DNA from: Pseudodesulfovibrio mercurii
GTDB taxonomy: Bacteria; Desulfobacterota; Desulfovibrionia; Desulfovibrionales; Desulfovibrionaceae
Reading direction: 5' to 3'
NCBI RefSeq assembly: GCF_000189295.2
Contig: NC_016803.1
Coordinates: 3,210,001-3,242,000, forward strand
Length of the DNA: 32,000 nt
The notes beneath the pieces were generated by a model. That model did no database searches and was not told the DNA's origin. It saw only the letters and a program-made list of their open reading frames with translations. Every line of letters begins with the position of its first letter. Position 1 is the stretch's first letter. A program made the position numbers and the translations under genes. This document shows, one piece after another, positions 1-16,762 of this stretch.

Positions 1-425
1 TCCGGGGCCTTGATGTCTTCGAGGTTGATGCCGCCGAAGGTCGGCTCCAGGGCCTTGACGATGTCGCACAGCTTGTCCGGGTCGCTGACGTCCAGGTCGA
101 TGTCGTAGACGTCCACGTCGCCGAAGACCTTGAACAGCACGCCCTTGCCCTCCATGACCGGCTTGCCCGCCAGGGGCCCGATGTTGCCCAGGCCGAGCAC
201 GGCGGTGCCGTTGGAAACCACGCCGACCAGGTTGCCCTTGCCGGTGTATTCGTAGACCAGTTCGGGATCGGCGTGGATGGCCTTGCACGCCTCGGCCACG
301 CCGGGGCTGTACGCCATGGACAGATGTTTCTGGGTCTTGCACGGCTTGACCGGGACGACCTCGACCTTCCCCTTGCGGCCGATGGAATGATAGTCCAGGG
401 CCTCTTGTTTGGTGAATAATGCCAT
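1..425 (-). CDS. NAD(P)-dependent malic enzyme, first 141 codons (3' end lies beyond the window)
   Basis: Own translation of the minus strand from ATG 425-423: [50 protein letters not shown]...[37 protein letters not shown]...[12 protein letters not shown]. This is the typical malic-enzyme N-terminus. It is absent from the ORF track because no stop falls in the window. Confidence 0.9.
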
Positions 426-452
426 TGTGTTATCTCCTTGAAGGTTTGTGCG

Positions 453-1010
453 TTATTCGATGCCCGCGGCCTTCAGGTCGGGCACGGCGTACAGTTCGCC
501 GCCGTGGGAATCGTTGATGACGAGCAGGGGGAAGTCCTCGACGGTCATCTCGCGGATGGCCTCGGGACCGAGTTCGTCGAAGGCGATGACCTTGGACGCC
601 ACGATGGAGTTGGACAGCAGCGCGCCCGCGCCGCCCGTGGCGCCGAAGTACACGGCGGTGTAGTCCTGCATGGCCTGCCGGGTGGCGGCGTCGCGCTTGC
701 CCTTGCCGATGGTCGCCTTGAGGCCCAGGGAGTAGAGGCGCGGGGCGTAGGAGTCCATGCGGTAGCTGGTGGTCGGACCGGCGGCGCCGATGGGGCGGCC
801 CGGAGGCGCCGGGGAGGGGCCGACGTAGTAGATGGCCGCGCCTTCGAGCTTGAAGGGCAGCTCCTTGCCCGCGTCGAGCAGGTCCACGAGCTTCTTGTGG
901 GCCGCGTCGCGCGCGGAGTAGATGGTCCCGGTCAGGAAGACCACGTCGCCCGCCTTGAGCTGGGCGATGTCCTCGTCGGTCAGCGGGGTGTTCAGTTTGT
1001 ATTCAGCCAT
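453..1010 (-). CDS. Class I (Fe-S) fumarate hydratase, beta subunit / C-terminal domain
   Basis: 185-aa ORF (…GTIYSARDAAHKKL…IYYVGPSPAPPGRPIGAAGPTTSYRMD…GKGKR…) matches the Fe-S hydro-lyase beta type. ATG confirmed at 1010-1008. It overlaps the stop of the alpha subunit by 1 nt (TAATG). Confidence 0.9.
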   Translation of the reverse strand: MAEYKLNTPLTDEDIAQLKAGDVVFLTGTIYSARDAAHKKLVDLLDAGKELPFKLEGAAIYYVGPSPAPPGRPIGAAGPTTSYRMDSYAPRLYSLGLKATIGKGKRDAATRQAMQDYTAVYFGATGGAGALLSNSIVASKVIAFDELGPEAIREMTVEDFPLLVINDSHGGELYAVPDLKAAGIE

Positions 1011-1849
1011 TAGAGTATGACCTCCTCATGCCGCTGGGAGTGGCATTGCACGTTGACGGCCAGAGGCAGGCTCGCCAGGTGGCAGGGCTCCATGGTGATC
1101 TTCACGCTGAGCACGGTGGTCTTGCCGCCGAGCCCCATGGGGCCGATGCCGAGGGCGTTGATGGCGTCCTCGAGCTCCTTTTCCTTGGCCGCGATGTCCG
1201 GATCGGGATGGGTGTCGTCGAGCTTGCGCAGCAGACCGCGCTTGGCGATCTTGGCCGCGTGCTCGAAGGTCCCGCCGATGCCCACGCCGATGACCGTGGG
1301 CGGGCAGGGGTTGGGACCGGCCTCGGCCACGCGGTTGACCACGAACTTCTTGATTCCTTCCCAGCCCTGGGCCGGGGCGAGCATGGTCACGCGGGACATG
1401 TTCTCGGCGCCGCCGCCCTTGGCCATGAAGGAGATCTTGAGCTTGTCGCCGGGCACGAAGTCGAAGTGGATGACGGCCGGGGTGCCGTCGCCGGTGTTGG
1501 CCCGGGTCAGCGGGTCGCAGGCGGACTTGCGCAGGTACCCTTCCTTGTAGCCCTTGCGCGTGCCCTCGTTGATGGCCTCGCGCAGGTTGCCGCCCTCGAT
1601 GCGCACGTCGTCGCCGACCTCCACGAAGAAGACGGCCAGTCCGGTGTCCTGGCACAGGGGCAGCTTGGTGTTGTGGGCCAGGTCCGCGTTTTCCAGGAGC
1701 TGGCGGAGCACTTCCTTGGCGGAAGGGCTGGTTTCCTCTGCCATGGCCTTTTCCAGTCTTGCGCGCACGTCGGCGGGCAGTTCGGTGTTGGCGCTGACGC
1801 ACATCCTGGCGACGGCGTCGATAATGTCGCTGGTCTGAATGGTACGCAT
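1010..1849 (-). CDS. Class I (Fe-S) fumarate hydratase, alpha subunit / N-terminal domain
   Basis: 279-aa ORF with …LPLCQDTGLAVFFVEVG…FMAKGGGAENMS…CPPTVIGVGIGGTFE…, typical of FumA/TtdA-type hydro-lyases. ATG at 1849-1847, 1 nt after the frdB stop. Confidence 0.9.
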   Translation of the reverse strand: MRTIQTSDIIDAVARMCVSANTELPADVRARLEKAMAEETSPSAKEVLRQLLENADLAHNTKLPLCQDTGLAVFFVEVGDDVRIEGGNLREAINEGTRKGYKEGYLRKSACDPLTRANTGDGTPAVIHFDFVPGDKLKISFMAKGGGAENMSRVTMLAPAQGWEGIKKFVVNRVAEAGPNPCPPTVIGVGIGGTFEHAAKIAKRGLLRKLDDTHPDPDIAAKEKELEDAINALGIGPMGLGGKTTVLSVKITMEPCHLASLPLAVNVQCHSQRHEEVIL

Positions 1850-1850
1850 G

Positions 1851-2591
1851 TTATTTCTTCCTGAAGATCTGCTTCATTGCGGTGATGCCCATCTTGCGGC
1901 GCAGGAAGCCGAGCTGGTTCTGCAGGGGCAGCCCCTTGGGACAGACGTCTTCGCAGGCGAGAAGGCCCATGCAGCCGAAGATGCCGTTGTCGTTGCCGAT
2001 GACCTCGAAGTACTGTCTGTCCGTCCGCTCGTCGCGGGGGTCGACCACGAAGCGGGCGATGCGGTTCAGGGCGGCGGCCCCCATGAAGTCGTCGCGCAGG
2101 CGGGCGGTGCCGCAGGCCGCGATGCAGCAGCCGCACTCGATGCACCGCTCAAGCTCGTAGATCTGCTCGGCCACGCCGTTGTCCATGCGTTCTTCGTGGG
2201 CGGCGGGATCGAAGACCTTCTTGGTGTGGATCCACGACTCGGTCTTGGCGTACATCTCGCGGAACCAGACGCCCGTGTCCACGGACAGGTCGCCGACGAG
2301 CTTGAAGACCGGCAGGGGGTGGAGGATGATGTGGCCGGGCAGGTCCTTGGTCTTGGTCTGGCAGGCCAGGCCCGGACGGCCGTTGATGACCATGGCGCAC
2401 GCCCCGCAGATGCCCGCGCGGCAGCAGAAGTCGAAGATGAGGCTCGGGTCCTGCTCCTCGCGCAGCCTGTTCAGGGCGATGAACAGGGTCATGTTCGGGT
2501 GTTCGTCCAGGATGTACTCCTGCATGTGCGGGACGTCACCCTTCCTCTCGGGATTATATCGGAATATCTCGAATTTGATTTGTCTACCCAT
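1851..2591 (-). CDS. frdB: Fumarate reductase / succinate dehydrogenase iron-sulfur subunit
   Basis: 246 aa with three Cys clusters (CRAGICGACAM; CIECGCCIAAC; CMGLLACEDVCPKG), the 2Fe-2S/4Fe-4S/3Fe-4S pattern of SdhB/FrdB. ATG at 2591-2589. Confidence 0.93.
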   Translation of the reverse strand: MGRQIKFEIFRYNPERKGDVPHMQEYILDEHPNMTLFIALNRLREEQDPSLIFDFCCRAGICGACAMVINGRPGLACQTKTKDLPGHIILHPLPVFKLVGDLSVDTGVWFREMYAKTESWIHTKKVFDPAAHEERMDNGVAEQIYELERCIECGCCIAACGTARLRDDFMGAAALNRIARFVVDPRDERTDRQYFEVIGNDNGIFGCMGLLACEDVCPKGLPLQNQLGFLRRKMGITAMKQIFRKK

Positions 2592-2615
2592 GATGCATTC
2601 CTTTCTTGATCCGGG

Positions 2616-4496
2616 TTACTTCTTCTTGCCGATTTCGGTGACGGGGCTCGCGATGGTGCGGTCCTTCACGTACTTTTCGTCCGCCGGGATGATCTTGCCG
2701 CCGCCGTAGCCGCGGTCGCCCGGAGGCAACTCGAAGAGCGGGGTGGTGTCCTCGTACTTGAGGTCGGGCATGTCCGCGCCGATGGGCCAGTAGGCCAGGG
2801 TGCGGTTGAGCCATTCCTTGTCGTTGCGCTCGGGGAAGTCCTCGCGGTTGTGGGAACCGCGCGACTCGGTGCGCATGAGGGCGGCCTGGGCGATGCACAT
2901 GGCCAGACGGACCTGGCCCTCGATCTTCAGCGCGGCGGCCAACTCGTGGTTGCAGCCCACGCCGTCCGAGACCAGGCCGACCTTGCGGGCCTTCTCCATG
3001 GTCCCCTGGAGGGTGGAGACGCACTCTTCGAGGCCGTCCTTGTTGCGGAAGACGAAGCAGCCCTTCATGAGGGCCTCCTGCATCTCGTTGCGCACCTCGT
3101 AGACGTTCAGCTTGCCGTTGCGGCCGTGGATGACGTCGTGGATGCGCTCCTGCTGGCGCTTGACCTCGGCCTCGATGACCGCGGTGTCGAAGGTGGTCTC
3201 GTATCCCTTGAGGAACTCGACGATCTTGGCGCCGATGATGCCGCCCGCGACCACGGTCTCGGCCAGGGAGTTGCCGCCCAGCCGGTTGAAGCCGTGCATG
3301 TCCCAGCAGGCCGCCTCGCCGGCGGAGTAGAGGCCCTTGAGGCCGTAGACCGCGCCGTCCTTGTTGGTCCGGATGCCGGCCATGGTGTAGTGCTGGGTGG
3401 GGCGCACCGGGATGAGCTGGGTGCGCGGGTCGATGCCCAGGAAGTGATGGCAGATCTCGTCCACTTCGCGCAGCTTGGTGGAGATGTGCTTGTCGCCGAG
3501 GTGGCGGATGTCCAGCCAGAGGTGTTCGCCGTAGGGGGACTTCACGCCCTTGCCCGCGCGCATGTGCTCGGTCATCCGGCGGGAGACCACGTCGCGGGAG
3601 GCCAGCTCGGCCTTTTCCGGCTCGTAGATGTGCATGAACCGCTCTTCGTTGACGTCGAGCAGGGTTCCGCCGTCGCCTCGACAGCCCTCGGTGACCAGGA
3701 TGTCGGTGGGCACGATGCCGGTGGGGTGGAACTGGATGGATTCGGGGTTGCCGATGGGCACCAGGCCGGTCTCGTGGGCCAGGATGTGTCCCGCGCCGTC
3801 GCAGATGACCGCGTTGGTGGTGGCCTTGTAGATGCGTCCGAAACCGCCGGTGCAGATGGCCGTGGCCTTGGCCAGGTGTACCTCCAGCTGGCCGTTGCGC
3901 AGGTCGCGGACCACCGCGCCCATGCACTTGTCGCCGTCATGGATCAGCGAGATGGCTTCCTTCTTGTCGAAGACGTCGATGCCCAGCTCGGCGCAGCGGT
4001 TGTCCATGGTGCACATGACCGCGTGGCCGGTGCCGTCCGAGGTGTAGCAGGTGCGCCACTTGGCAGTGCCGCCGAAGGAGCGGGCGGTGATCAGCCCCTC
4101 GTTCTCCTCCTTCTCGTATTTCTCGAACTTCTCGCCGCCCTTGAAGTAGAAGGACTGGCCTGGGACCACGCGGTTCCAGGGCACGCCCCAGTGGGCCAGG
4201 CGGCGCATCTCGATGGGCGCGGCGTCGGCGAACAGGCGGGCGACCTCCTGATCGCAGCCCCAGTCCGAGCCCTTGACGGTGTCGATGAAATGGACGTCCG
4301 GGTTGTCGCCCTCGCCCTTGGCACAGTTGCCGAGGGCGGCCTGCATGCCGCCCTGGGCCGCAGAGGAGTGGGACCGCCGGGCCGGGACGATGGACAGGCA
4401 GGTGGCTTTGAAGCCGTTCTGGGCGGCCTCGCAGGCCACGCGTTCGCCGGACAGTCCGGCGCCGATGACGAGCAGGTCGGAATAGTATGTCTGCAT
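2616..4496 (-). CDS. frdA: Fumarate reductase flavoprotein subunit
   Basis: Contains the SDLLVIGAGLSG dinucleotide fold and RSHSSAAQGG, the histidyl-FAD attachment motif. It matches SdhA/FrdA over its full length. I prefer ATG 4496 (GAGGTG 7 nt upstream) over the GTG at 4505 used by the ORF track. Confidence 0.95.
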   Translation of the reverse strand: MQTYYSDLLVIGAGLSGERVACEAAQNGFKATCLSIVPARRSHSSAAQGGMQAALGNCAKGEGDNPDVHFIDTVKGSDWGCDQEVARLFADAAPIEMRRLAHWGVPWNRVVPGQSFYFKGGEKFEKYEKEENEGLITARSFGGTAKWRTCYTSDGTGHAVMCTMDNRCAELGIDVFDKKEAISLIHDGDKCMGAVVRDLRNGQLEVHLAKATAICTGGFGRIYKATTNAVICDGAGHILAHETGLVPIGNPESIQFHPTGIVPTDILVTEGCRGDGGTLLDVNEERFMHIYEPEKAELASRDVVSRRMTEHMRAGKGVKSPYGEHLWLDIRHLGDKHISTKLREVDEICHHFLGIDPRTQLIPVRPTQHYTMAGIRTNKDGAVYGLKGLYSAGEAACWDMHGFNRLGGNSLAETVVAGGIIGAKIVEFLKGYETTFDTAVIEAEVKRQQERIHDVIHGRNGKLNVYEVRNEMQEALMKGCFVFRNKDGLEECVSTLQGTMEKARKVGLVSDGVGCNHELAAALKIEGQVRLAMCIAQAALMRTESRGSHNREDFPERNDKEWLNRTLAYWPIGADMPDLKYEDTTPLFELPPGDRGYGGGKIIPADEKYVKDRTIASPVTEIGKKK

Positions 4497-4509
4497 GGTG
4501 TTCACCTCG

Positions 4510-5157
4510 TTAGCTCAGCGTTATGAAGCGGATCAGGGTGATGACGCCGATGACCATGAAGATGGTGAACAGGGTCGTCTCGAAGCGCTTGAAGCCCTTC
4601 CGCTGCTCGGATTTCACGAAACCCCACTTCACGGCGATGCGGTAGAAGCCGACGCTGACGTGAAGCTCCACGCTGGGAAGGAGGATCATGTAGAAGAGGA
4701 ACCACCAGAAATGCTGCATGCGCGCGGCGGACTTGGCGGCGGTGATGGGCAGGTCGTTGAGCACGACCCACATGTGGATGGCGCCCAGGATCAGGATGAT
4801 CATGGCGGTCACGGCCTGGACCACCCACAGCCAGGTGTCGCGGTGCTTGAGCATCCGGGCGTGGGCCACGATGGTGGCCTGTCCCTCGGCGCGGAAGGGG
4901 ATCTTGCGCGCGGCCAGGGCGAAGTGGACCAGGAAGGTCAGGAAGATCAGCGGACCGCCCACCTGGGCCATGTAGGTGGCCTCGAAGAAGTGGGCGATGG
5001 CGTTCATCACGCCGGGGGAGATGACCACCGAGGACACGAGCAGCATGTGACACCACATGAAAAGGATCAGGCTTGCTCCCGTCAGCATCTGCAGCCAGTC
5101 GAGGGCGGCATCGGTGAGGGATACGCCTGGGACGGATGTCGTAAAGGTTTTCATCAT
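4510..5157 (-). CDS. frdC: Fumarate reductase cytochrome b membrane subunit (single-anchor, Wolinella/Desulfovibrio type)
   Basis: 215 aa with five hydrophobic segments carrying conserved His residues. It sits directly upstream of frdA (4-nt gap). Tandem ATG ATG at 5157-5152 with AGGTGA upstream. Confidence 0.85.
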   Translation of the reverse strand: MMKTFTTSVPGVSLTDAALDWLQMLTGASLILFMWCHMLLVSSVVISPGVMNAIAHFFEATYMAQVGGPLIFLTFLVHFALAARKIPFRAEGQATIVAHARMLKHRDTWLWVVQAVTAMIILILGAIHMWVVLNDLPITAAKSAARMQHFWWFLFYMILLPSVELHVSVGFYRIAVKWGFVKSEQRKGFKRFETTLFTIFMVIGVITLIRFITLS

Positions 5158-5345
5158 TCTTCACCTGTTGTTCTTGATTGATACGAATAGACCCTGCCTC
5201 TGGAATCGCCTCGTCCGCGCGGGGGGCCCGTCCCTCCGGACCGGGTCCGGCGGGCGCGTCCCGCGCGCGGTTCGATGCGCTTGCCGAGATCCTCCTACGG
5301 AACCTCCTCTATACATCGGATATGGATCGCAACGGTTTCGGAAAA

Positions 5346-5360
5346 GCAACAGGCATGCCA
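5346..5360 (-). promoter_or_regulatory. Sigma-54 (-24/-12) promoter for frdCAB-fumarase-malic enzyme
   Basis: The minus strand reads CTGGCATGCCTGTTGCTTT: TGGCAT-N5-TTGCT with GG-N10-GC spacing and one mismatch to TGGCAC-N5-TTGCW. It lies 189 nt upstream of the frdC ATG and downstream of a GAFTGA-containing activator gene. Confidence 0.7.
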
Positions 5361-5366
5361 GAACGC

Positions 5367-5382
5367 GTGACAAAAAAGTCAC
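5367..5382. promoter_or_regulatory. GTGAC-A6-GTCAC palindrome just upstream of the -24 box (possible bending or operator site)
   Basis: Perfect 5+6+5 palindrome with an A6/T6 tract, read directly from the sequence. Its function is unknown. Confidence 0.3.
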
Positions 5383-5422
5383 GGGATTACACGGCTATAA
5401 TGGGTCGTGGGAAAGGGAATGA

Positions 5423-5466
5423 GCGGATTCTTGCCGATGGGGCGCATTCGGTAGGCAAGAATCCGC
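5423..5466. promoter_or_regulatory. 13-bp perfect inverted repeat GCGGATTCTTGCC-N18-GGCAAGAATCCGC (candidate enhancer/UAS and/or dctD terminator hairpin)
   Basis: Arms at 5423-5435 and 5454-5466 are exact reverse complements. The centre is about 86 bp upstream of the -24 GG and begins 7 nt after the dctD stop. Confidence 0.6.
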
Positions 5467-5472
5467 CGATGA

Positions 5473-6818
<1,346 letters not shown>

Positions 6819-6822
<4 letters not shown>

Positions 6823-8663
6823 GATTCTTCTTCTTGTTTTTGCTTGGAACGGGGCAGGATGACGAAGAATTCCGCCCCGTGCGGGTCGCGGTTGCCCACC
6901 CGGAAGTCGCCCTTCATGTCCTTGACGATCTTGTAGGAAATGGACAGGCCCAGGCCCACGCCGATGCCCTCCTTCTTGGTGGTCACGAAGGGCTCGAAGA
7001 TCTTCTTGCCGACCTCCTCGGCGATGCCCGGCCCGTTGTCCCAGACGTGGATGGTCGCCCGGTCGCCGTCCTCGGACAGGCGCACGCCGATGAGCGGCGA
7101 GGCGGTCTCCTGGAGGGCGTCCAGGCCGTTGCGGAAGAGGTTGATGAGGACCTGTTCCATGCGCATGCGGTCGCCCCGGATGAGCACGGGCTGGCCGGGC
7201 ATGGACAGCTTGAGGTCGCAGTTCTCTACCAGGAACTGGTGCTTCATCAGGTTCAGCGCCTCCTTGATGGCCAGGCGCAGGTCGAATTCGATGTCCTTGT
7301 CCGTGGATCGCCGGGCAAAGGACTTGAGCTGGCCCGTGACCTTGGCCATGCGGTCGCCCAGCTCCGAGACCTTGATCAGGGTCGGGTCGAGGTCGTCGAG
7401 CTTGTCGCGCTTGAGCATCAGGCGGCAGGAGGCCACGTAGGTCTTGGTGGCCGCGATGGGCTGGTTGAGCTCGTGGGCGATGGCCGTGGCCATCTCGCCC
7501 AGGGCGGCCAGCTTGCCCGCCTGGACCAGCTCCTCCTGGGCCGCGCGCAGCTCGTGCTCCGTGCGCTTGCGCTCCTCCACCTCCTGGGCCAGCTGGCGGT
7601 TGATGTCCCGGATGCGGTTGGCCTCCACGGCCTGCTGGCGGGAGATCTGGCGCTGCCGGCGCTCGCGCAGGAAGAGCCGGGTCAGCACGGCCAGGCCGAG
7701 AACCACGAAGGTGGTCAGGGAGACGCCCAGGGTCCGCTCCCAGAGGGGCCCCTGGGGGGTGAGGTAGCTGATCTTCCAGTCCGTGCCGGGGATGCCCCGG
7801 GTGTTCAGCAGGAAGCGTTCGGTGCCGATGGTCGTCTCCTGGACGAAGCCGAAGCGGGTCCGTGTGTGCCAGGGCAGGTGCTTGAGCTGGAACTTGGGGT
7901 AGTGCTCGCGGTCGTGGATCTCCTGGATCAGGCCCGCGTCCAGGGGGGTCAGGGTCATGTACTTCCATGAGGGGCGGCTGGTCAGGACGATGACCCCGTT
8001 GGAGTCGGTCACGATCAGGGTCTCGCCGCCCTCCTTCCAGAGGTGCTCCAGGGGGGACAGGGCGATCTTGGCCACGGCCACGCCGATGACCTCGTCCCTG
8101 TCCTTGATGGGATGGGAGATGTAGATGCCGGGCTCGCCCCGGGTGATGCCCACGCCGAAGAAGGTCCCCTGGCGTCCGGCCATGGCGTCCTTGAAGTAGG
8201 GCCGGAAGCCGAGGTCCAGGCCGATGAAGGCGTTGGGGCGGTCCCAGTTGGAGGCCGCCTTGACGATGCCGTCCGTGCCGATGATGTAGACCACCGACGA
8301 TTCGGCGATGGTGTTGACCCGCTTGAGGAAGCGGTTGATGGGCACGCCCTCGCCGCCCTTGGTCAGGAAGGCCGTGACCATGCCGTTCTCGGAGATGAGG
8401 TAGGGCAGGTACTCGTACTTGCGCAGCTCGGAATCGAGCGTCATCTCGTACAGGGTCAGCCGCTCGTCGGATACCTGCTCCAGGTCCTGGAGGTAGTCGT
8501 ACTGCACCAGCAGGCCGACGATGAACGGCAGGCCGATGAGCAGGAAGATGCCAGCGTCACGGCCGGGGTGTTGAATCGCGTCTCGTTGAAGGCTTTCATG
8601 CTTTGCCTGTGCTCCCCGCCGCACGGGCGGGGGTTGGGTCTGTTTCGGTCCGTTTCCCAGCAA
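6819..8663 (-). CDS. dctB: Sensor histidine kinase with periplasmic double-PDC/Cache region, DctB type (start codon uncertain)
   Basis: TM (IFLLIGLPFIVGLLV), then a ~270-aa periplasmic region beginning …RLTLYEMTLDSELRKYEYLPYLIS…, a second TM, an H-box AIAHELNQPIAA and HATPase (…DNGPGI…GIGVGL…). The track start at 8663 is TTG; GTG at 8624 is an alternative. Confidence 0.85.
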
Positions 8664-8666
8664 TAG

Positions 8667-8690
8667 GCGGAAATCCGCCGATGGGGCAAG
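8667..8690. promoter_or_regulatory. GGCGGA-AA-TCCGCC palindrome plus GCCGATGGGGCAAG, a compacted copy of the frd-proximal inverted repeat
   Basis: Shares the exact 12-mer AATCCGCCGATG (8672-8683 = 5460-5471) and the exact 11-mer GCCGATGGGGC (8677-8687 = 5433-5443) with the repeat at 5423-5472. Confidence 0.35.
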
Positions 8691-8863
8691 GGCAAAAGCG
8701 GGCCCCCTGGGGGACGTTTGCGTTCAACTTCCCTGAATTGTTTGCCTTGTGTCGATTATTGAGCGGAGCCATGCCCGTAACCTAGCAAATAGGATACCGA
8801 CATGCGGACCAAGGCGCATGTTTCGGGCCGCCCGTTCGCAGACCGTGGGGCAACCGGGCGGGA

Positions 8864-11026
8864 TCAGTGCGGGAAATTCTCGGTGTAGGCCACGGTCCGG
8901 TCGGGCAGGAACCAGATGCAGGCGCTGTCGGGCGAGTAGCTTTCGAGGAAGGCGGCGCCCTTGGCCGGGCCCATGATGAACAGAGTGGTGGCCAGGGCGT
9001 CGGCCAGCTCGGCGGTGTCGGCGATGACCGTCACGCCGATGGACTCGTGGGCCGAATCCATGGTCTTGGGGTCGATGATGTGGTGGTGCTCGATGGGCCC
9101 GTCCTGCTTGTCCGGGGTGACGAACTGGCGGTAGTCGCCGGAGCCGCATACGCCCTTGCCGCGCACGGCGATGGTCTGGAACACCGCGTCGTTGCGCGGG
9201 TGGCGGATGCCCACGTGCCAGTCGCGGTCGCCGAAGCAGCGGAAGTCGCCGCCCGCCTCGACGATGCCCGCGGGCACGCCGTGCTTTTGCAGCAGGGCCA
9301 CGGCCTCGTCCACGATGGACCCCTTGGCGATGCCGCCGAGGTCCAGCGCCATGCCCGGTTTCTTGAGCCGGACCCGGTCGCCGGGCCGGTCCAGGAGGAC
9401 CATGCGGTAGTCCACCAGCCCGGACTTGGCCCGGGCCACGGACTCGTCCATGGCGTAGTAGAAGGGCGAGGTGGTCAGGGCCCCCACAGTGGGATCGAAG
9501 ACCCCGCCCGTGGCCGCGCTGAATTGCAGCGCCCTGTCGAGCAGGGCGAAGGCGCGCGGCGTGACCTTGACCCAGGACTGCCCGGCCGCGCGGTTGATCC
9601 GGCCGATGGAGCCGCGCGGGTTGCGGTGGTCGAAGTCCTGCTGCAGGGCGCGCATGGCGGTCATGGTCAGGCGGGCCGCCAGGGCCGCGGACTTGCGGCT
9701 CGGGGCCTCGATGGTCAGCTTGACCACGGTGCCCATGGCCACGTCGGTGAAGCGGTAGAAATCCTCGTCTCCGCCGTCCGGGCGCAGGTTCGGGGAGAGG
9801 GTCACGGCCAGGAGCAGGCCGAGCAGGCAGGCGGCCAGGCCGGTGGCGGTCCGGGCCATGCCCGCGCCCCAGTGGAACTGGTCGCGGAAGACGTGGGTCA
9901 GCAGGGGCAGGCAGGTCAGTGCACCGATGACGGCCGCGGCCTTGAGCCCGGCCTCCGGGGCGTGCAGTGAGTGGACGATGAACCCGCCGAGCAGGGGGCC
10001 CAGGAGAAAACCGAGGCCGGAGGCGAGGTTGGCCGCGCCGAAGACCGCGCCCTGGCGGCGGCTCAGGGTCGAGGCGAAGAACATGGAGGCCGGGATGGAC
10101 AGGGCCGCGCCCAGTCCCAGGATCACGCCGAAGGCGGCGAACTGCCAGAGCATCCGGCACTCGCCCAGGGCGTAGAGCCCCCCGGCGCTGACGAGCATGC
10201 CCAGGACCACGCGGTCCATGTTCGGCGACTTGTTGTCGAACCGCCCGGTGAGCAGCAGGCCGAGGAAGGTGGCCAGGCCGGGCGCGGCGAAGGTGGCCGC
10301 GATGACCGGGCCGTGCCGCCCGAGGATTTCGGCCAGGACGATGGGGTAGAAGGCGGTGGTCAGGCCGATGCCCAGGCTGCGCCCGCCGATGGCCAGGAGC
10401 AGGGCCCCGGCGCGGCTTTTGGAGCGGACCGGCTCGGCCTGGGGCGAGGGCGGGCGGCTGGTGGTCGCCTCGCCGGGCAGGAGCAGCAGGGTGGCGGCCA
10501 GGGCCAGGCCGAGGCAGACGGACAGGCCGACCAGCACCGGACCCATGACCCCGGTGGTGTAGAGCAGGCTGCCGAGGATGGGCCCGGCGAAGGCGGCCGC
10601 GTTGAACAGGGCCGCGTGGACCGCGAAGCGCCGGGACAGGGCCGCGCCCGTGGCCGATCCGCCCAGGGCGGCCAGGCCCACGGGCCGGACCAGGCCCGTG
10701 ACCAGCCCCATGGCCACCTGGACCAGGTACAGGGCGGCCAGGCCGGGGGACAGGAAATAGGCCAGGGGGATGAGGCAGCCGGCACCCATGGCCAGGACCA
10801 GGACCGGCTTGGGCCCGTAGCGGTCGGCGGCCAGGCCGGACAGGGGCGAGACCAGGAGCTTGGCCAGGTAGTATCCGGCGAAGGCCGTGCCGAGCCACGC
10901 CCCGCTGACCCGTTCGTCCAGGGTCAGGAGCGGGATGGTGAAGGCGAACAGCCCCACCCCCAGGGTGGTGAACAGACCGCCGGTCAGGACGGCGGCGAGG
11001 GTGCGGTTGTTCCCGTTGGCGTGCAT
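8864..11026 (-). CDS. Fusion protein: MFS-type 12-TM transporter, a 13th TM, then an ApbE/Ftp FAD:protein FMN transferase domain
   Basis: 720 codons from ATG 11026-11024. The N-terminal ~380 aa have 12 hydrophobic segments with a central charged loop. The C-terminal ~300 aa carry ApbE signatures (ALDLGGIAKG, HHIIDPKT, ADTAELADALATTLF). There is no stop between the two parts. Confidence 0.85.
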   Translation of the reverse strand: MHANGNNRTLAAVLTGGLFTTLGVGLFAFTIPLLTLDERVSGAWLGTAFAGYYLAKLLVSPLSGLAADRYGPKPVLVLAMGAGCLIPLAYFLSPGLAALYLVQVAMGLVTGLVRPVGLAALGGSATGAALSRRFAVHAALFNAAAFAGPILGSLLYTTGVMGPVLVGLSVCLGLALAATLLLLPGEATTSRPPSPQAEPVRSKSRAGALLLAIGGRSLGIGLTTAFYPIVLAEILGRHGPVIAATFAAPGLATFLGLLLTGRFDNKSPNMDRVVLGMLVSAGGLYALGECRMLWQFAAFGVILGLGAALSIPASMFFASTLSRRQGAVFGAANLASGLGFLLGPLLGGFIVHSLHAPEAGLKAAAVIGALTCLPLLTHVFRDQFHWGAGMARTATGLAACLLGLLLAVTLSPNLRPDGGDEDFYRFTDVAMGTVVKLTIEAPSRKSAALAARLTMTAMRALQQDFDHRNPRGSIGRINRAAGQSWVKVTPRAFALLDRALQFSAATGGVFDPTVGALTTSPFYYAMDESVARAKSGLVDYRMVLLDRPGDRVRLKKPGMALDLGGIAKGSIVDEAVALLQKHGVPAGIVEAGGDFRCFGDRDWHVGIRHPRNDAVFQTIAVRGKGVCGSGDYRQFVTPDKQDGPIEHHHIIDPKTMDSAHESIGVTVIADTAELADALATTLFIMGPAKGAAFLESYSPDSACIWFLPDRTVAYTENFPH

Positions 11027-11143
11027 GTCGGTTAACGGTTTGCCGGGCAGGCGGTTCTCGGCGGGGGGGCCGGTTCCTCGGGAGGCCCATCCTGACCGCA
11101 ATCGGCGGGGTTGTCCACCCCCGCGACCCCGGGCCGCCCGCAA

Positions 11144-11929
11144 TCAGTGCACGAATTGCTCGTTGAAGATGCGCTCCTCCAGGGAGTGGTCCGGGGCGAA
11201 GAGGATGCGCGCCGGGCGCGCGTGGTCCTCGTGGACCAGGATGTGGGCCACGTCGCGGACCTCCAGGAAGTCCGCCGTGACGCTGACCGGCCGCCGCTTC
11301 GGGTCGAGGACCTCGAATTCCACGTCGGCCGTGTCCGGCAGCAGGGCCCCGTTCCAGCGCCGGGGCCGGAAGGGGCAGATGGGGGTCAGGGCCATGACGT
11401 TGGAGCCCAGCGGGATGATCGGCCCGTGGGCGGACAGGTTGTAGGCCGTGGAGCCCGCCGGGGTGGCGATCATGACCCCGTCGCAGACCATGTTGTCCAG
11501 CCGCTCGCGCCCGTTGATGAACAATCGGATGTGGGCCGACTGCTGGGAGATGCGCAGCATGGCCACCTCGTTGAAGGCCAGGGCCGAGACGCGGTCGCCG
11601 TCCACGGTGGTGGCGGCCATGGCCAGGGGGCTCAGGAGGTGTTCCTGGGCCGCGTCGATGCGCTCGAAGAGGTCGTCCGGGGAATACTGGTTGAGCAGGA
11701 AGCCGATGGTCCCGCAGTTCATGCCGTAGATGGGCAGGTCGCGGTCCATGACCCGGTGCATGGTCCGGAGCATGAACCCGTCGCCGCCGAGCGCCACCAG
11801 GGCGTCGGCCTCGTCCAGGGGGACCAGGGGATAGCGCGCCTCCAGTTCGGCCAGGCGTTTCCGGGCGGTGGGGGTCTGCGAGGCGACGCAGGCGATACGG
11901 CGTACGGCGGTGTCCATGGTGTGTCCCAT
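11144..11929 (-). CDS. nadK: NAD(+) kinase
   Basis: …ALVALGGDGFMLRT…GMNCGTIGFL…DGVMIATPAGSTAYNLSAHGPI… (GGDG and NAD-kinase motifs). ATG at 11929 or 11917. The 408-aa track ORF is an unsupported upstream extension. Confidence 0.9.
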   Translation of the reverse strand: MGHTMDTAVRRIACVASQTPTARKRLAELEARYPLVPLDEADALVALGGDGFMLRTMHRVMDRDLPIYGMNCGTIGFLLNQYSPDDLFERIDAAQEHLLSPLAMAATTVDGDRVSALAFNEVAMLRISQQSAHIRLFINGRERLDNMVCDGVMIATPAGSTAYNLSAHGPIIPLGSNVMALTPICPFRPRRWNGALLPDTADVEFEVLDPKRRPVSVTADFLEVRDVAHILVHEDHARPARILFAPDHSLEERIFNEQFVH

Positions 11930-12164
11930 CCTGTTGGTGCGTTTGTCGGTCCCACTACCTTGCATGGAGCGTGCCGTAAAGAGGGGCGGCGCGTTTGCCC
12001 CGCAGGCGCGAACAACGTCGCCCGGCTCCCCGCCGGTCATTTTCGGGGCACATTTCCCGACCCGGCGGGTATGGAGCGCATTGCCTCCCGCCGGGAAATG
12101 CACTACGGAAGAAGAGGGCCGGGACCCGGGTTCCGGCCTCCCCATCCACGAGGTGCATGCTCCC

Positions 12165-13815: not shown

Positions 13816-13939
13816 GGGGCCGGTTTCCTCCCGGTACGAGTGGGAAAATAATGGCACAGGGTTGTTATGAGAAGGATAACTATGGTAGGTTTACGCCTCG
13901 GGTCCGTCCGGACCGGATTTCATACCAAGGAGATAGAAA

Positions 13940-16762
<2,823 letters not shown>

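What the first reader, a model, noticed from the sequence alone, without database searches (positions are those of the whole stretch)
8864..11026. In-frame fusion of a 12-TM MFS transporter to an ApbE flavin transferase via a 13th membrane segment
This is one uninterrupted 720-codon frame. Residues ~10-380 show 12 hydrophobic stretches with a charged central loop (MFS layout). Residues ~420-720 are an ApbE/Ftp FAD:protein FMN transferase (ALDLGGIAKG, HHIIDPKT, ADTAELADALATTLF). Between them lies …GAG-MARTATGLAACLLGLLLAVTLSP… (Met codon at 9859-9857). That stretch looks like the fossil start plus signal/lipobox-like (LAAC) anchor of a once-separate ApbE. It now provides an odd 13th TM, which would place the ApbE domain on the periplasmic face. 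ApbE acts outside the cytoplasm and consumes FAD there. Dedicated FAD exporters are known in only a few organisms, for example the MATE-family Bfe of Shewanella. A covalent transporter-transferase fusion suggests an export-and-flavinylate device, which I am not aware of being described. The alternative is internal initiation at 9859 giving an ordinary stand-alone ApbE.
Basis: partly seen in the sequence, partly recalled or inferred. Interest (0 to 1): 0.7.

Follow-up and report, generated by a model that had tools for sequence, protein, structure and literature searches.

The report
MFS transporter fused to ApbE flavin transferase
This is a real, conserved single gene in sulfate-reducing bacteria that joins a 12-helix efflux-type membrane transporter to the periplasmic enzyme that attaches flavin to proteins, and comparative genomics points to this transporter family as a candidate for the poorly understood step that brings FAD across the membrane to that enzyme.

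Summary
Window 8864-11026 (-) is one 720-codon gene of Pseudodesulfovibrio mercurii (WP_014323511.1) with Pfam MFS_1 at the N-terminus and ApbE at the C-terminus. AlphaFold gives 12 MFS helices, a 13th helix (residues 388-410), then an ApbE fold. K+R counts (15 inside, 2 outside) put ApbE in the periplasm.

The fusion is not an artefact. There are 53 full-length fused homologues (42-87% identity), forming 16 clusters at 50% identity. The "fossil start/lipobox" idea fails: Met390 is kept in 12 of 53 sequences and Cys400 in 1 of 53.

This MFS subfamily is tied to ApbE in three ways:
- It is fused to ApbE.
- In a deep fused clade, a secreted protein with two FMN_bind domains (an ApbE substrate type) is encoded immediately upstream.
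- Its stand-alone sister clade always sits in an MFS-nqrABCDEF-apbE block (10 loci with the whole block; 3 more end inside nqr).

The MFS half is DHA1/NorA-like and carries the exporter motif C. The ApbE catalytic Ser/His/Asp are invariant.

Best reading: an FAD-export-plus-flavinylation device, functionally analogous to the Listeria EetB/FmnA-FmnB system but built on a different transporter superfamily and fused. FAD transport is inferred, not shown. I found no description in the searched literature.

The parts
8864..11026 (-). Complete CDS of the MFS::ApbE fusion protein (720 aa plus stop codon at 8864-8866)
   Evidence: ORF list. 100% match to WP_014323511.1. Homologue N-termini support the ATG at 11026.
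9875..11005 (-). MFS domain, residues 8-384: 12 transmembrane helices, DHA1/NorA-like
   Evidence: Pfam MFS_1 E=1.4e-28. NorA is the best solved relative by sequence, E=1.1e-10, and by fold, Foldseek E=8.8e-12, TM 0.78. AlphaFold shows 12 helices.
10802..10837 (-). MFS motif A (G64-L-A-A-D68-R-Y-G71-P-K-P-V) in the cytoplasmic TM2-TM3 loop
   Evidence: Read from the sequence. G64 and D68 are invariant and G71 is at least 90% conserved in 40 fused homologues.
10559..10597 (-). MFS motif C ('antiporter motif') in TM5: A-A-F-A-G148-P149-I-L-G152-S-L-L-Y
   Evidence: Read from the sequence. G148, P149 and G152 are at least 90% conserved. That this motif marks MFS exporters is established knowledge, not tested here.
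9794..9856 (-). 13th transmembrane helix (residues 391-411), which carries the chain from the cytoplasm to the periplasm
   Evidence: Hydropathy 1.94. AlphaFold helix 388-410 with pLDDT about 90. A hydrophobic segment is present in all 53 homologues (lowest best-window KD 1.58), but sequence identity is only 37%.
9857..9859 (-).
   Evidence: Met in only 12 of 53 homologues. The 'lipobox' Cys400 occurs in 1 of 53.
9761..9793 (-). Short variable linker (residues 412-422) between TM13 and the ApbE fold
   Evidence: 16% mean identity. pLDDT below 50 for residues 413-419.
8867..9760 (-). ApbE / Ftp FAD:protein FMN transferase domain (residues 423-720)
   Evidence: Pfam ApbE E=1.3e-66. Solved relatives by sequence: TM1553 E=2.5e-34, T. 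pallidum Ftp E=5.7e-29, Listeria FmnB E=9.6e-28. Foldseek: FmnB E=2.1e-17, TM 0.84.
9140..9142 (-). Ser629 (SGDY), equivalent to V. cholerae ApbE Ser241 / FmnB Ser257
   Evidence: Invariant in 40 homologues. Aligns with SGAY of Ftp. The catalytic triad is described in PMC12052999.
9083..9085 (-). His648 (HHIIDP), equivalent to the catalytic His257 of V. cholerae ApbE
   Evidence: Invariant. Aligns with HHIIDP of Ftp and TM1553. The 28-residue spacing to D676 matches His257-Asp285.
8987..9001 (-). Asp676-x-x-x-Thr680 (ADALATT), the metal-binding/catalytic Asp motif
   Evidence: D676 and T680 are invariant. Aligns with ADALAT of Ftp.
11144..11992 (-). Upstream neighbour on the same strand: NAD kinase (context only, not shown to belong to the system)
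   Evidence: Pfam NAD_kinase and NAD_kinase_C. Same order in P. methanolicus.
6819..8663 (-). Downstream neighbour: dCache histidine kinase, followed by a sigma-54 response regulator (5473-~6830) and frdCAB/fumarase (1-5160). Context only.
   Evidence: Gene order and Pfam hits in the syntenic P. methanolicus locus. ORFs in the window.

Best explanation
The gene makes one roughly 77-kDa inner-membrane protein.

Its N-terminal 12-helix MFS domain belongs to the proton-coupled efflux type (DHA1, NorA-like). I propose that it carries FAD from the cytoplasm, where FAD is made, to the periplasmic face.

A 13th helix takes the chain across the membrane once more. A linker of about 11 residues then holds an ApbE/Ftp domain against the outer face of the membrane, next to the transporter's exit.

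That domain uses the exported FAD and Mg2+ to transfer FMN onto a Thr/Ser of extracytoplasmic FMN_bind-type proteins, releasing AMP. Likely targets are Rnf/Nqr subunits or PplA-like double FMN_bind proteins.

Shown here:
- The fusion, its conservation and its domain identities.
- Intact catalytic and transporter motifs.
- The predicted topology.
- A three-fold genomic linkage of this MFS subfamily with ApbE and ApbE substrates.

Inferred: that the solute is FAD, the direction of transport, hand-over between the two halves, and the identity of the targets in P. mercurii.
For: 1. The fusion is real and under selection. There are 53 full-length homologues at 42-87% identity, from complete genomes and many independent assemblies, all carrying both Pfam domains. 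Among 1.84 billion cluster representatives there are 16 full-length clusters at 50% identity. Both halves are conserved: mean identity to the query is 58% for MFS and 68% for ApbE.

2. Topology. AlphaFold gives 12+1 helices followed by ApbE. K+R counts are 15 inside versus 2 outside.

3. The ApbE half is catalytically intact. S629, H648, D676 and T680 are invariant. The fold matches FmnB, Ftp and TM1553 with TM 0.81-0.84.

4. The MFS half looks like a working exporter. Motifs A and C are conserved. The nearest solved relatives are NorA and VMAT/VAChT, which are substrate/H+ antiporters.

5. Linkage A: fusion. In scans seeded only with MFS-half motifs, 15 of 24 genome loci and 19 of 30 metagenome loci have MFS and ApbE in one ORF. 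In 3 more metagenome loci the MFS and ApbE frames are contiguous but broken by frameshifts.

6. Linkage B: substrate next door. In the deep fused clade (14 loci, including L017, L021, L022, L032, L050, L053 and L056), the gene immediately upstream on the same strand encodes a protein of about 230 aa. The gap is 15-35 nt in the four loci measured. The protein has a signal peptide and two FMN_bind domains, each ending D-x-x-A-[KRG]-A-[ST]. The same gene precedes the closest stand-alone lipoprotein ApbE, P0080.

7. Linkage C: the stand-alone sister clade. This clade (30-36% identity; NJ tree) always heads the block MFS-nqrABCDEF-apbE. The whole block is seen in 10 distinct loci (L023-L030, L066, L067), and 3 further contigs (L007, L058, L060) end inside nqr. 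It persists even where the upstream flank differs.

8. The subfamily is discrete. Members score at least 345 bits against the MFS-half profile, and the next full-length MFS scores 113 bits.

9. The need is real. [quoted passage not shown] In Listeria a dedicated FAD exporter (EetB/FmnA) colocalises with apbE (PMC9973259), so there is precedent for the logic.
Against: - No transport or flavinylation assay exists; the substrate is inferred only from association.
- FAD is a large dianion, whereas characterised DHA1 pumps mostly move cationic or neutral drugs.
- No known MFS FAD exporter was found to compare with.
- In P. mercurii itself, no FMN_bind target lies within the 32-kb window. Neighbours are not conserved with the most distant fused homologue.
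- The double FMN_bind protein family has no Pseudodesulfovibrio-named member among the 120 listed of 130 hits.
- One stand-alone MFS (P0083, on contigs under 2 kb) nests inside the fused clade and has no ApbE in the 240 nt downstream.
- The relative orientation of the two halves in the model is only moderately confident (pTM 0.62), and no error map was available.
- The nqr-linked ApbE is only about 27% identical to the fused ApbE half, so the two arrangements are not one operon collapsed into a gene.
Confidence: 0.55

Rival explanations
1. The transporter half moves a different flavin-related solute. One version is a salvage device: the periplasmic ApbE/Ftp domain hydrolyses FAD to FMN plus AMP, as T. 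pallidum Ftp can, and the MFS takes up FMN, riboflavin or AMP. Another version is export of riboflavin or FMN, for example for the riboflavin cofactor of NqrB.
For: The fused ApbE half is closest to the Ftp_Tp / FmnB / TM1553 group. It has no Tyr at the isoalloxazine-stacking position: residues 466-469 are D-H-R-N. That is the 'non-yellow' class, which shows FAD pyrophosphatase activity in vitro (PMC4767422). AMP inhibits ApbE (PMC12052999), so removing it could be useful. The nqr linkage would also fit riboflavin supply.
Against: Both Ftp classes transfer FMN when a protein substrate is present (PMC4767422). FmnB, of the same class, is a proven transferase fed by an FAD exporter. A secreted double FMN_bind substrate gene sits directly upstream of many fused genes, which argues for transfer rather than salvage. 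The MFS carries motif C, which is typical of exporters/antiporters.
Confidence: 0.15
2. The MFS half is an ordinary efflux pump for an unrelated solute (a drug or metabolite). Its fusion or adjacency to ApbE has no mechanistic meaning beyond membrane anchoring, or is inherited synteny within one bacterial family.
For: All members found belong to Desulfovibrionaceae and related Thermodesulfobacteriota, so shared ancestry inflates the number of 'independent' observations. NCBIfam gives only weak Tet/multidrug-type matches. A TetR regulator lies upstream in L008 and L016, as is common for drug pumps.
Against: Three structurally different arrangements all pair this MFS with ApbE: the fusion, the fusion plus a substrate gene, and the head of nqr-apbE. 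Flanking genes change while the pairing stays. One MAG carries both arrangements (L018 and L024). A simple anchor needs one helix, as in P0076, not a 12-helix domain kept at 58% identity with transporter motifs intact.
Confidence: 0.15
3. Two proteins are made from one frame. Translation also, or mainly, starts at Met390 (9859), giving an ordinary signal-anchored or lipoprotein ApbE, so the full-length fusion is not the functional form.
For: An in-frame ATG followed by a hydrophobic stretch with L-A-A-C exists in P. mercurii. Close stand-alone relatives of the ApbE half with a TM anchor (P0076) or a lipoprotein-type signal (P0080) exist.
Against: Met is present in 12 of 53 homologues and Cys in 1 of 53. 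The Cys would lie only 11 residues from that Met, which is short for a lipoprotein signal peptide. No promoter-like site was found in 8500-11400. All 53 full-length fused sequences from the homologue search keep the junction in frame despite indels in the linker; a few low-quality metagenome contigs are frameshifted there.
Confidence: 0.05
4. The fusion is a sequencing or assembly artefact: a missed stop or frameshift between two adjacent genes.
For: A few low-quality metagenome contigs do show the two halves in different frames (L001, L008, L046, L051, L062).
Against: The same single ORF occurs in several complete genomes and dozens of independent assemblies across 42-87% identity. GC3 is uniform across the junction.
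Confidence: 0.01

Closest known systems
Listeria monocytogenes EET flavinylation module: the EetB/FmnA ECF FAD exporter, FmnB (ApbE-like) and PplA (double FMN_bind lipoprotein) (PMC9973259)
   Same: The logic is the same: a dedicated membrane transporter supplies FAD to an extracytoplasmic ApbE-family transferase, which flavinylates a protein with two FMN_bind domains. The transporter gene colocalises with apbE. The fused ApbE half resembles FmnB in fold (Foldseek TM 0.84). The deep fused clade has a PplA-like double FMN_bind gene next door.
   Different: The transporter is an ATP-driven ECF system there and a secondary MFS carrier here. The parts are separate polypeptides there and covalently fused through a 13th helix here. 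The host is a Gram-positive there and a Gram-negative sulfate reducer here. FAD export is demonstrated genetically there and only inferred here.
Bfe (Shewanella oneidensis) and YeeO (E. coli), MATE-family FAD/flavin exporters (PMC3551548; PMC5655446)
   Same: Secondary transporters proposed to bring cytoplasmic FAD into the periplasm of Gram-negative bacteria, where ApbE can use it.
   Different: They belong to a different superfamily (MATE, not MFS). They are not fused to apbE and, according to PMC9973259, do not typically colocalise with it. Bfe mainly feeds extracellular flavin shuttles.
Canonical ApbE/Ftp lipoproteins (V. cholerae ApbE, E. coli/Salmonella ApbE, T. pallidum Ftp, T. maritima TM1553)
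   Same: Same Pfam family and fold. Conserved Ser/His/Asp and the DALxT metal motif. Predicted extracytoplasmic location.
   Different: Those proteins are about 330-350 aa with a cleaved lipoprotein signal peptide. Here the signal peptide is replaced by a 12-helix transporter plus an uncleaved 13th helix.
DHA1-type MFS drug/H+ antiporters (NorA, MdfA, TetA) and VMAT/VAChT
   Same: 12-helix MFS fold. Motif A in loop 2-3, a basic residue in TM4 (R114), and motif C in TM5. These are the best sequence and structure matches.
   Different: Only 17-19% identity. The NorA proton-coupling acids were not checked here. There is an extra 13th helix and an enzyme domain. The subfamily is sharply separated from other MFS (at least 345 bits versus 113 bits).
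Trypanosomatid fumarate reductase with an N-terminal ApbE domain (bioRxiv 10.1101/2020.12.30.424822; PMC12052999)
   Same: Another natural fusion of an ApbE domain to a functional partner.
   Different: There ApbE is fused to its flavinylation target and acts inside a compartment. Here it is fused to a transporter, the presumed supplier of its co-substrate.

Membership tests
ApbE / Ftp FAD:protein FMN transferase (PF02424) | Significant match to the family profile over its full length | tested here: met
   E=1.3e-66, 225 bits against a cut-off of 25.6, profile positions 1-265 of 266.
ApbE / Ftp FAD:protein FMN transferase (PF02424) | ApbE fold | tested here: met
   The AlphaFold model (ApbE half mostly pLDDT above 85) matches FmnB, Ftp and TM1553 with target TM 0.81-0.84 and rmsd 2.4-3.0 A.
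ApbE / Ftp FAD:protein FMN transferase (PF02424) | Conserved catalytic Ser-His-Asp (V. cholerae S241/H257/D285) and the metal-binding D-x-x-x-T motif | tested here: met
   S629, H648, D676 and T680 are invariant in 40 homologues. They align with the Ftp and TM1553 motifs. Residue roles are taken from PMC12052999.
ApbE / Ftp FAD:protein FMN transferase (PF02424) | Extracytoplasmic location | tested here: inconclusive
   Predicted only: 13 helices with the N-terminus inside and K+R 15 inside versus 2 outside. No experimental topology.
ApbE / Ftp FAD:protein FMN transferase (PF02424) | N-terminal lipoprotein signal peptide with a lipobox Cys (typical, not universal) | tested here: not met
   No N-terminal signal. 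The internal 'LAAC' Cys is present in 1 of 53 homologues. Anchoring is by TM13 instead.
ApbE / Ftp FAD:protein FMN transferase (PF02424) | Mg2+-dependent transfer of FMN from FAD to Thr/Ser of a target protein | not testable with these tools
   Needs an enzyme assay. Indirect support comes from a double FMN_bind substrate-type gene directly upstream in many fused loci.
Major facilitator superfamily, DHA1-like exporters (PF07690) | Match to MFS_1 and a 12-helix 6+6 architecture with a central cytoplasmic loop | tested here: met
   MFS_1 E=1.4e-28. 12 helices with a K/R-rich loop at 183-213. NorA and VMAT are the structural matches.
Major facilitator superfamily, DHA1-like exporters (PF07690) | Motif A (GxLaDrxGrkp) in loop TM2-3 and motif C (gxxxGPxxGG) in TM5 | tested here: met
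   G64...D68...G71 and G148-P149...G152 are conserved at 90% or more. The link between motif C and exporters is from established literature, not tested here.
Major facilitator superfamily, DHA1-like exporters (PF07690) | Proton-coupled efflux of a defined substrate | not testable with these tools
   No assay. The substrate is inferred from genomic association only.
Known bacterial FAD exporters (MATE Bfe/YeeO; ECF EetB-FmnA) | Homology to MatE, or to EetB (PF07456) / ECF-T | tested here: not met
   Only MFS_1 and ApbE are found by Pfam and NCBIfam. It may work like these exporters but is not a member of either family.

The most novel reading that the evidence does not exclude
This discrete MFS subfamily is a dedicated FAD exporter that feeds periplasmic ApbE in Desulfovibrionaceae and related sulfate reducers. 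It occurs fused to ApbE, or stand-alone at the head of nqrABCDEF-apbE. In the fused form, FAD passes directly from the transporter's exit to the tethered transferase without entering the bulk periplasm. That would make it the first MFS-type FAD exporter and the first transporter-enzyme fusion for a protein cofactor-attachment step.
Probability: 0.45. Interest if true: 0.8.

Novelty: new variant of a known kind. Interest (0 to 1): 0.68.

Why it matters
ApbE-dependent flavinylation matures Rnf, Nqr, NosR, extracellular electron-transfer proteins and many uncharacterised extracytoplasmic redox systems across bacteria. It needs FAD outside the cytoplasm. Apart from the MATE exporter Bfe in Shewanella and the ECF exporter EetB/FmnA in Listeria, how FAD gets there is unknown; a 2025 review calls these pathways 'still obscure' (PMC12052999).

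A transporter physically fused to ApbE, with stand-alone relatives locked to nqr-apbE operons, names a concrete candidate that can be tested directly. Possible tests are gene splitting, motif mutants, rescue by external FAD, vesicle transport, and complementation of Shewanella bfe or Listeria eetB mutants.

It would also be a compact two-in-one part for engineering periplasmic flavoproteins. P. mercurii ND132 is a cultured isolate widely used to study mercury methylation (my own knowledge), so such experiments should be feasible.

Tried and rejected
- Exact-sequence context look-ups for P0001 and P0027 found nothing. I used P0002 and P0055 instead.
- The promoter/terminator scan of 8500-11400 found no site, so it says nothing on internal or upstream transcription starts. 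No Shine-Dalgarno-like sequence is evident before ATG 11026.
- I looked for a flavinylation target in the window. There is no FMN_bind hit among the window proteins scanned with Pfam, and no hit to the double FMN_bind profile.
- I searched for the double FMN_bind protein in Pseudodesulfovibrio. None of the 120 listed hits (of 130) is named as such. The P. mercurii targets remain unidentified, and I could not scan the rest of its genome for rnf, nqr or a second apbE.
- I tried to classify the N-terminal polytopic domain of another ApbE fusion, P0187. Pfam gave nothing even at E up to 10, and the single-sequence AlphaFold model was unusable at pLDDT 43. My guess that it is a MOP/MATE-like flippase is therefore unsupported and dropped.
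- I checked whether the closest stand-alone ApbE relatives (P0076, P0080) sit next to an MFS, as split orthologues would. They do not.
- I considered a functional link to the neighbouring frdCAB/fumarase genes. FrdA carries histidyl-FAD attached by a different route, so I treat the recurrence as inherited synteny.
- I considered that the elevated G+C of the gene (0.72-0.74 against about 0.66) signals horizontal transfer. It is more simply explained by the Ala/Gly/Leu-rich membrane protein composition, so I did not pursue it.
- The assignment of the Ftp N55 / E. coli Y60 position is ambiguous by one residue (R468 or N469). I conclude only that it is not Tyr.


Full report
**1. The observation**

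On the minus strand the frame 8864..11143 is open for 759 codons. The ATG at 11026 gives a 720-aa protein. It is identical to Pseudodesulfovibrio mercurii WP_014323511.1 / EGB16087.1 / UniProt F0JJI8. Different sources name it 'ApbE family lipoprotein', 'FAD:protein FMN transferase' or 'MFS transporter'.

Pfam finds MFS_1 (E=1.4e-28, from residue 14) and ApbE (E=1.3e-66, residues 431-704, essentially the whole profile). NCBIfam adds only weak Tet/multidrug MFS matches and a sub-threshold ApbE equivalog match. GC3 is 0.95 over the whole frame.

**2. The fusion is real and conserved**

A search of 5.8 billion proteins returned 53 full-length homologues of 708-821 aa at 42-87% identity. All carry both Pfam domains. 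They come mostly from Pseudodesulfovibrio isolates, including several complete genomes, and from metagenomes.

An exhaustive HMMER search of 1.84 billion cluster representatives found 16 full-length fused clusters at 50% identity, down to 38% identity to the query. An assembly artefact is therefore excluded.

A few low-quality metagenome contigs show the halves in different frames, but the halves remain contiguous (L001, L008, L046, L051, L062).

**3. Anatomy and topology**

AlphaFold2 with a 40-sequence alignment (mean pLDDT 83.8, pTM 0.62) gives 12 helices up to residue 382, a further helix at 388-410, a low-confidence linker at 413-419, then an alpha/beta domain. Foldseek matches the C-terminal half to Listeria FmnB, T. 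pallidum Ftp and T. maritima TM1553 (E about 1e-17, target TM 0.81-0.84). It matches the N-terminal half to NorA and VMAT1/2 (E about 1e-11 to 1e-10, TM 0.72-0.84). Sequence searches of the PDB agree.

Using these helices, loops on the side of the N-terminus hold 15 Lys+Arg and loops on the other side hold 2. MFS motif A (G64..D68..G71) lies in the TM2-3 loop. So the N-terminus and the end of TM12 are cytoplasmic, and TM13 delivers the ApbE domain to the periplasm. This is a prediction, not an experiment.

**4. The 'fossil start plus lipobox' idea**

In the alignment of 53 fused proteins, the column of Met390 holds Met in 12 sequences and L, V, A, T, Y, I, F and others elsewhere. The column of Cys400 holds Cys only in P. 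mercurii. TM13 is always hydrophobic (lowest best 19-residue window 1.58) but only 37% identical on average. The linker is 16% identical, against 58% for the MFS half and 68% for the ApbE half.

TM13 is therefore a generic membrane-crossing anchor. The Met/LAAC resemblance in this species is coincidental, and conserved internal initiation is unlikely. Close stand-alone relatives of the ApbE half do exist: P0076 has an N-terminal TM anchor and P0080 has a lipoprotein-type signal, both at 49% identity. So a once-separate ApbE is a reasonable history, but this stretch is not its fossil.

**5. Are both halves functional?**

*ApbE half.* Ser629 (SGDY), His648 (HHIIDP), Asp676 and Thr680 (ADALATT) are invariant in 40 homologues and align with the same motifs of Ftp and TM1553. 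A 2025 review names Ser241/His257/Asp285 of V. cholerae ApbE as the only conserved catalytic-centre residues (PMC12052999). The His-to-Asp spacing of 28 residues matches.

The position that is Tyr in the 'yellow' FAD-binding Ftps is not Tyr here (residues 466-469 are D-H-R-N). This places the domain with the Ftp_Tp/FmnB class, which shows FAD pyrophosphatase activity alone but transfers FMN when a substrate protein is present (PMC4767422). This assignment is tentative.

*MFS half.* Motif A, a basic residue in TM4 (R114, R or K throughout) and motif C in TM5 (G148-P149..G152) are conserved. From established MFS literature, motif C marks antiporter/exporter families. The nearest solved relatives are all substrate/H+ antiporters.

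**6. Related loci: the key evidence**

I scanned one genome per species (GTDB) and JGI metagenomes with patterns taken only from the MFS half. Then I searched every ORF of the returned loci with profiles of the two halves and with Nqr proteins.

*Genomes (24 loci, all Desulfovibrionaceae or other Thermodesulfobacteriota):*
- 15 have MFS and ApbE in one ORF.
- 8 have a stand-alone MFS.
- 1 is cut by the contig end.

*Metagenomes (30 loci):*
- 19 are fused.
- 3 have contiguous MFS and ApbE frames broken by frameshifts.
- 3 have a stand-alone MFS followed by nqr.
- 5 end at or just after the MFS.

*The stand-alone MFS loci.* Every stand-alone MFS with readable flanks heads the same co-directional block: MFS-nqrA-nqrB-nqrC-nqrD-nqrE-nqrF-apbE. 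I verified this with Pfam on L023 and by tblastn on L024-L030, L057, L058 and L060. I then confirmed it in Desulfovibrio gilichinskyi and in another contig whose upstream genes are different. L007 shows nqrA after the MFS.

*Tree and separation.* A neighbour-joining tree of the MFS domains places the nqr-linked proteins as one clade, sister to all fused ones. The subfamily is sharply delimited: members score at least 345 bits against the MFS-half profile, and the next full-length MFS scores 113 bits. One MAG carries both arrangements (L018 and L024).

**7. A substrate gene next to the fusion**

In the deep-branching fused clade, the gene immediately upstream on the same strand encodes a protein of about 230 aa. 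The gap is 15-35 nt in the four loci measured. The loci are L017, L021=L059, L022=L061, L032, L043, L047, L048, L050-L053, L055, L056 and L063.

The protein has a signal peptide and two Pfam FMN_bind domains. Each domain ends in a conserved D-[VSN]-[VI]-[AT]-[KRG]-A-[ST], a variant of the D-x-x-[ST]-G-A-[ST] flavinylation motif (motif definition from PMC12052999).

The same protein precedes the closest stand-alone lipoprotein ApbE, P0080. This layout mirrors Listeria PplA (two FMN_bind domains) plus FmnB. It argues that the fused ApbE acts as a transferase on a secreted substrate.

The family is found in Desulfovibrio, Desulfobulbus and Desulfuromonas MAGs, Ignavibacteria and Syntrophales. No listed hit is named Pseudodesulfovibrio, and it is absent from the window.

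**8. Context in the window**

The order on the minus strand is:
- NAD kinase (11144-~11990)
- the fusion
- a dCache histidine kinase (6819-8663)
- a sigma-54 response regulator (5473-~6830)
- frdCAB and a two-subunit fumarase (1-5160)

P. methanolicus has the same order. The most distant fused homologue has entirely different neighbours. No flavinylation target lies in the 32 kb, so the targets in P. mercurii (most plausibly Rnf and/or Nqr subunits) are not identified here.

**9. Mechanism**

The most economical reading of sections 2-7 is as follows. The MFS half exports FAD. The tethered periplasmic ApbE half uses that FAD to flavinylate extracytoplasmic FMN_bind proteins.

- *Shown:* architecture, conservation, intact motifs, predicted topology and three kinds of genomic linkage.
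- *Inferred:* the solute, the direction of transport and any direct hand-over between the halves.

I put 0.55 on this reading. The rivals are:
- A different flavin-related solute, or a salvage role (0.15).
- An unrelated efflux pump, with the association reflecting lineage-restricted synteny or mere anchoring (0.15).
- Internal initiation (0.05).
- Artefact (0.01).

The main weakness is that all members come from one bacterial lineage, so the many loci are not independent events. Against that, three structurally different arrangements keep the pairing while the flanking genes change.

**10. Comparison with what is known**

The closest functional analogue is the Listeria EetB/FmnA ECF exporter, which supplies FAD to FmnB and whose gene colocalises with apbE in 2,169 genomes (PMC9973259). 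MATE exporters (Bfe, YeeO) are the other known flavin exporters (PMC3551548; PMC5655446). The protein here belongs to neither family; it belongs to ApbE and to MFS.

Neither the large survey of flavinylation gene clusters (PMC8238504) nor the 2025 ApbE review (PMC12052999) mentions MFS. Searches combining ApbE with MFS, 'major facilitator', fusion or nqr found nothing relevant. [quoted passage not shown]

The sequences themselves are in public databases with automatic names, so the protein is not new. The interpretation appears to be.

**11. Verdict**

This is a genuine, conserved MFS::ApbE fusion with a predicted periplasmic transferase domain. It is a new variant (different transporter superfamily, covalently fused) of a known kind of system, transporter-fed ApbE flavinylation. 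Interest is 0.68: it gives a concrete, testable candidate for an acknowledged gap, but the functional claim rests on comparative genomics within one lineage.

Noticed in passing
L023 9905-18414; also L024-L030, L057, L058, L060, L066, L067, L007: In Maridesulfovibrio, Desulfovibrio gilichinskyi and related MAGs, a stand-alone MFS of this subfamily always heads a co-directional MFS-nqrABCDEF-apbE block. In L066 and L067 a conserved 66-67-aa ORF and a 152-aa ORF follow apbE; the small one may be NqrM-like, but I did not test this. I found no description of an MFS gene as part of nqr loci.
   Followed up: yes
L017 9224-9910, L021 9195-9938, L053 5111-5818, L056 9206-9889 and 10 further loci; L035 7160-7828: A secreted protein of about 230 aa made of two tandem FMN_bind domains (PplA-like). 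It carries a variant flavinylation motif, D-x-x-A-[KRG]-A-[ST], instead of D-x-x-[ST]-G-A-[ST]. It is encoded directly upstream of the fused gene, and also upstream of a related stand-alone lipoprotein ApbE. Its redox partner and function are unknown.
   Followed up: partly
P0187 (685 aa), P0101 (495 aa), P0057 (943 aa): Other polytopic membrane proteins fused to ApbE exist outside this family. P0187 and P0101 have an unclassified multi-helix N-terminal domain of about 360 aa with no Pfam hit. P0057, from Planctomycetes, has a PMT/PMT_2 glycosyltransferase-like domain. So ApbE has been joined to membrane proteins more than once.
   Followed up: partly
window 1-8663 (-); L018 4855-8139; L008 57-677: frdCAB (with fumarase, plus a DctB/DctD-like dCache kinase and sigma-54 regulator in Pseudodesulfovibrio) lies near the fused gene in three different arrangements, in members as distant as 36-38% identity. 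This is probably inherited synteny, but a link to fumarate respiration was not excluded.
   Followed up: partly
L002-L004 (P0083, 387-391 aa): A stand-alone MFS that nests inside the fused clade in the tree. It ends with a stop after TM12, and no ApbE frame is present in the 240 nt downstream. A small Cys-rich ORF lies on the opposite strand. All six contigs are under 2 kb, so its context is unknown. It is the only apparent exception to the ApbE association.
   Followed up: partly
L001 1790-1811 and L008 3591-3621: Two Logan contigs from sister samples (SRR22103810 and SRR22103809) both shift frame just before the conserved A-M-G-T at the start of the ApbE domain, so gene callers split the protein there. 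This could be a recurrent assembly error or a real frameshift; it is unresolved.
   Followed up: no
window 11027-11146: There are 117 nt between the NAD kinase stop (11144-11146) and ATG 11026, against 7 nt in P. methanolicus (L005). No Shine-Dalgarno-like sequence is seen before the ATG. An in-frame TTG at 11143 abuts the NAD kinase stop codon and would add an Arg-rich 39-aa extension, which homologues do not support.
   Followed up: partly
L018 and L024 (MAG SRR6201695_bin.5): One Desulfovibrio MAG carries both the fused MFS::ApbE gene and the MFS-nqrABCDEF-apbE block. The two forms therefore coexist as paralogues, and the fusion is not necessarily the only ApbE in a genome.
   Followed up: partly
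window 13937-16762 (+): A 941-aa protein joins an FAD-linked oxidase (FAD_binding_4 + FAD-oxidase_C) to a 4Fe-4S dicluster and a CCG domain, resembling a fused D-lactate/glycolate dehydrogenase. Nearby are DUF2087, beta-carbonic anhydrase, YceI, CorA, RimK, a CitMHS/TrkA_C transporter and two large sensor kinases.
   Followed up: no
window 9001-11000: G+C is 0.72-0.74 in the fused gene against about 0.65-0.68 in most of the window. The Ala/Gly/Leu-rich membrane protein composition probably explains it.
   Followed up: no
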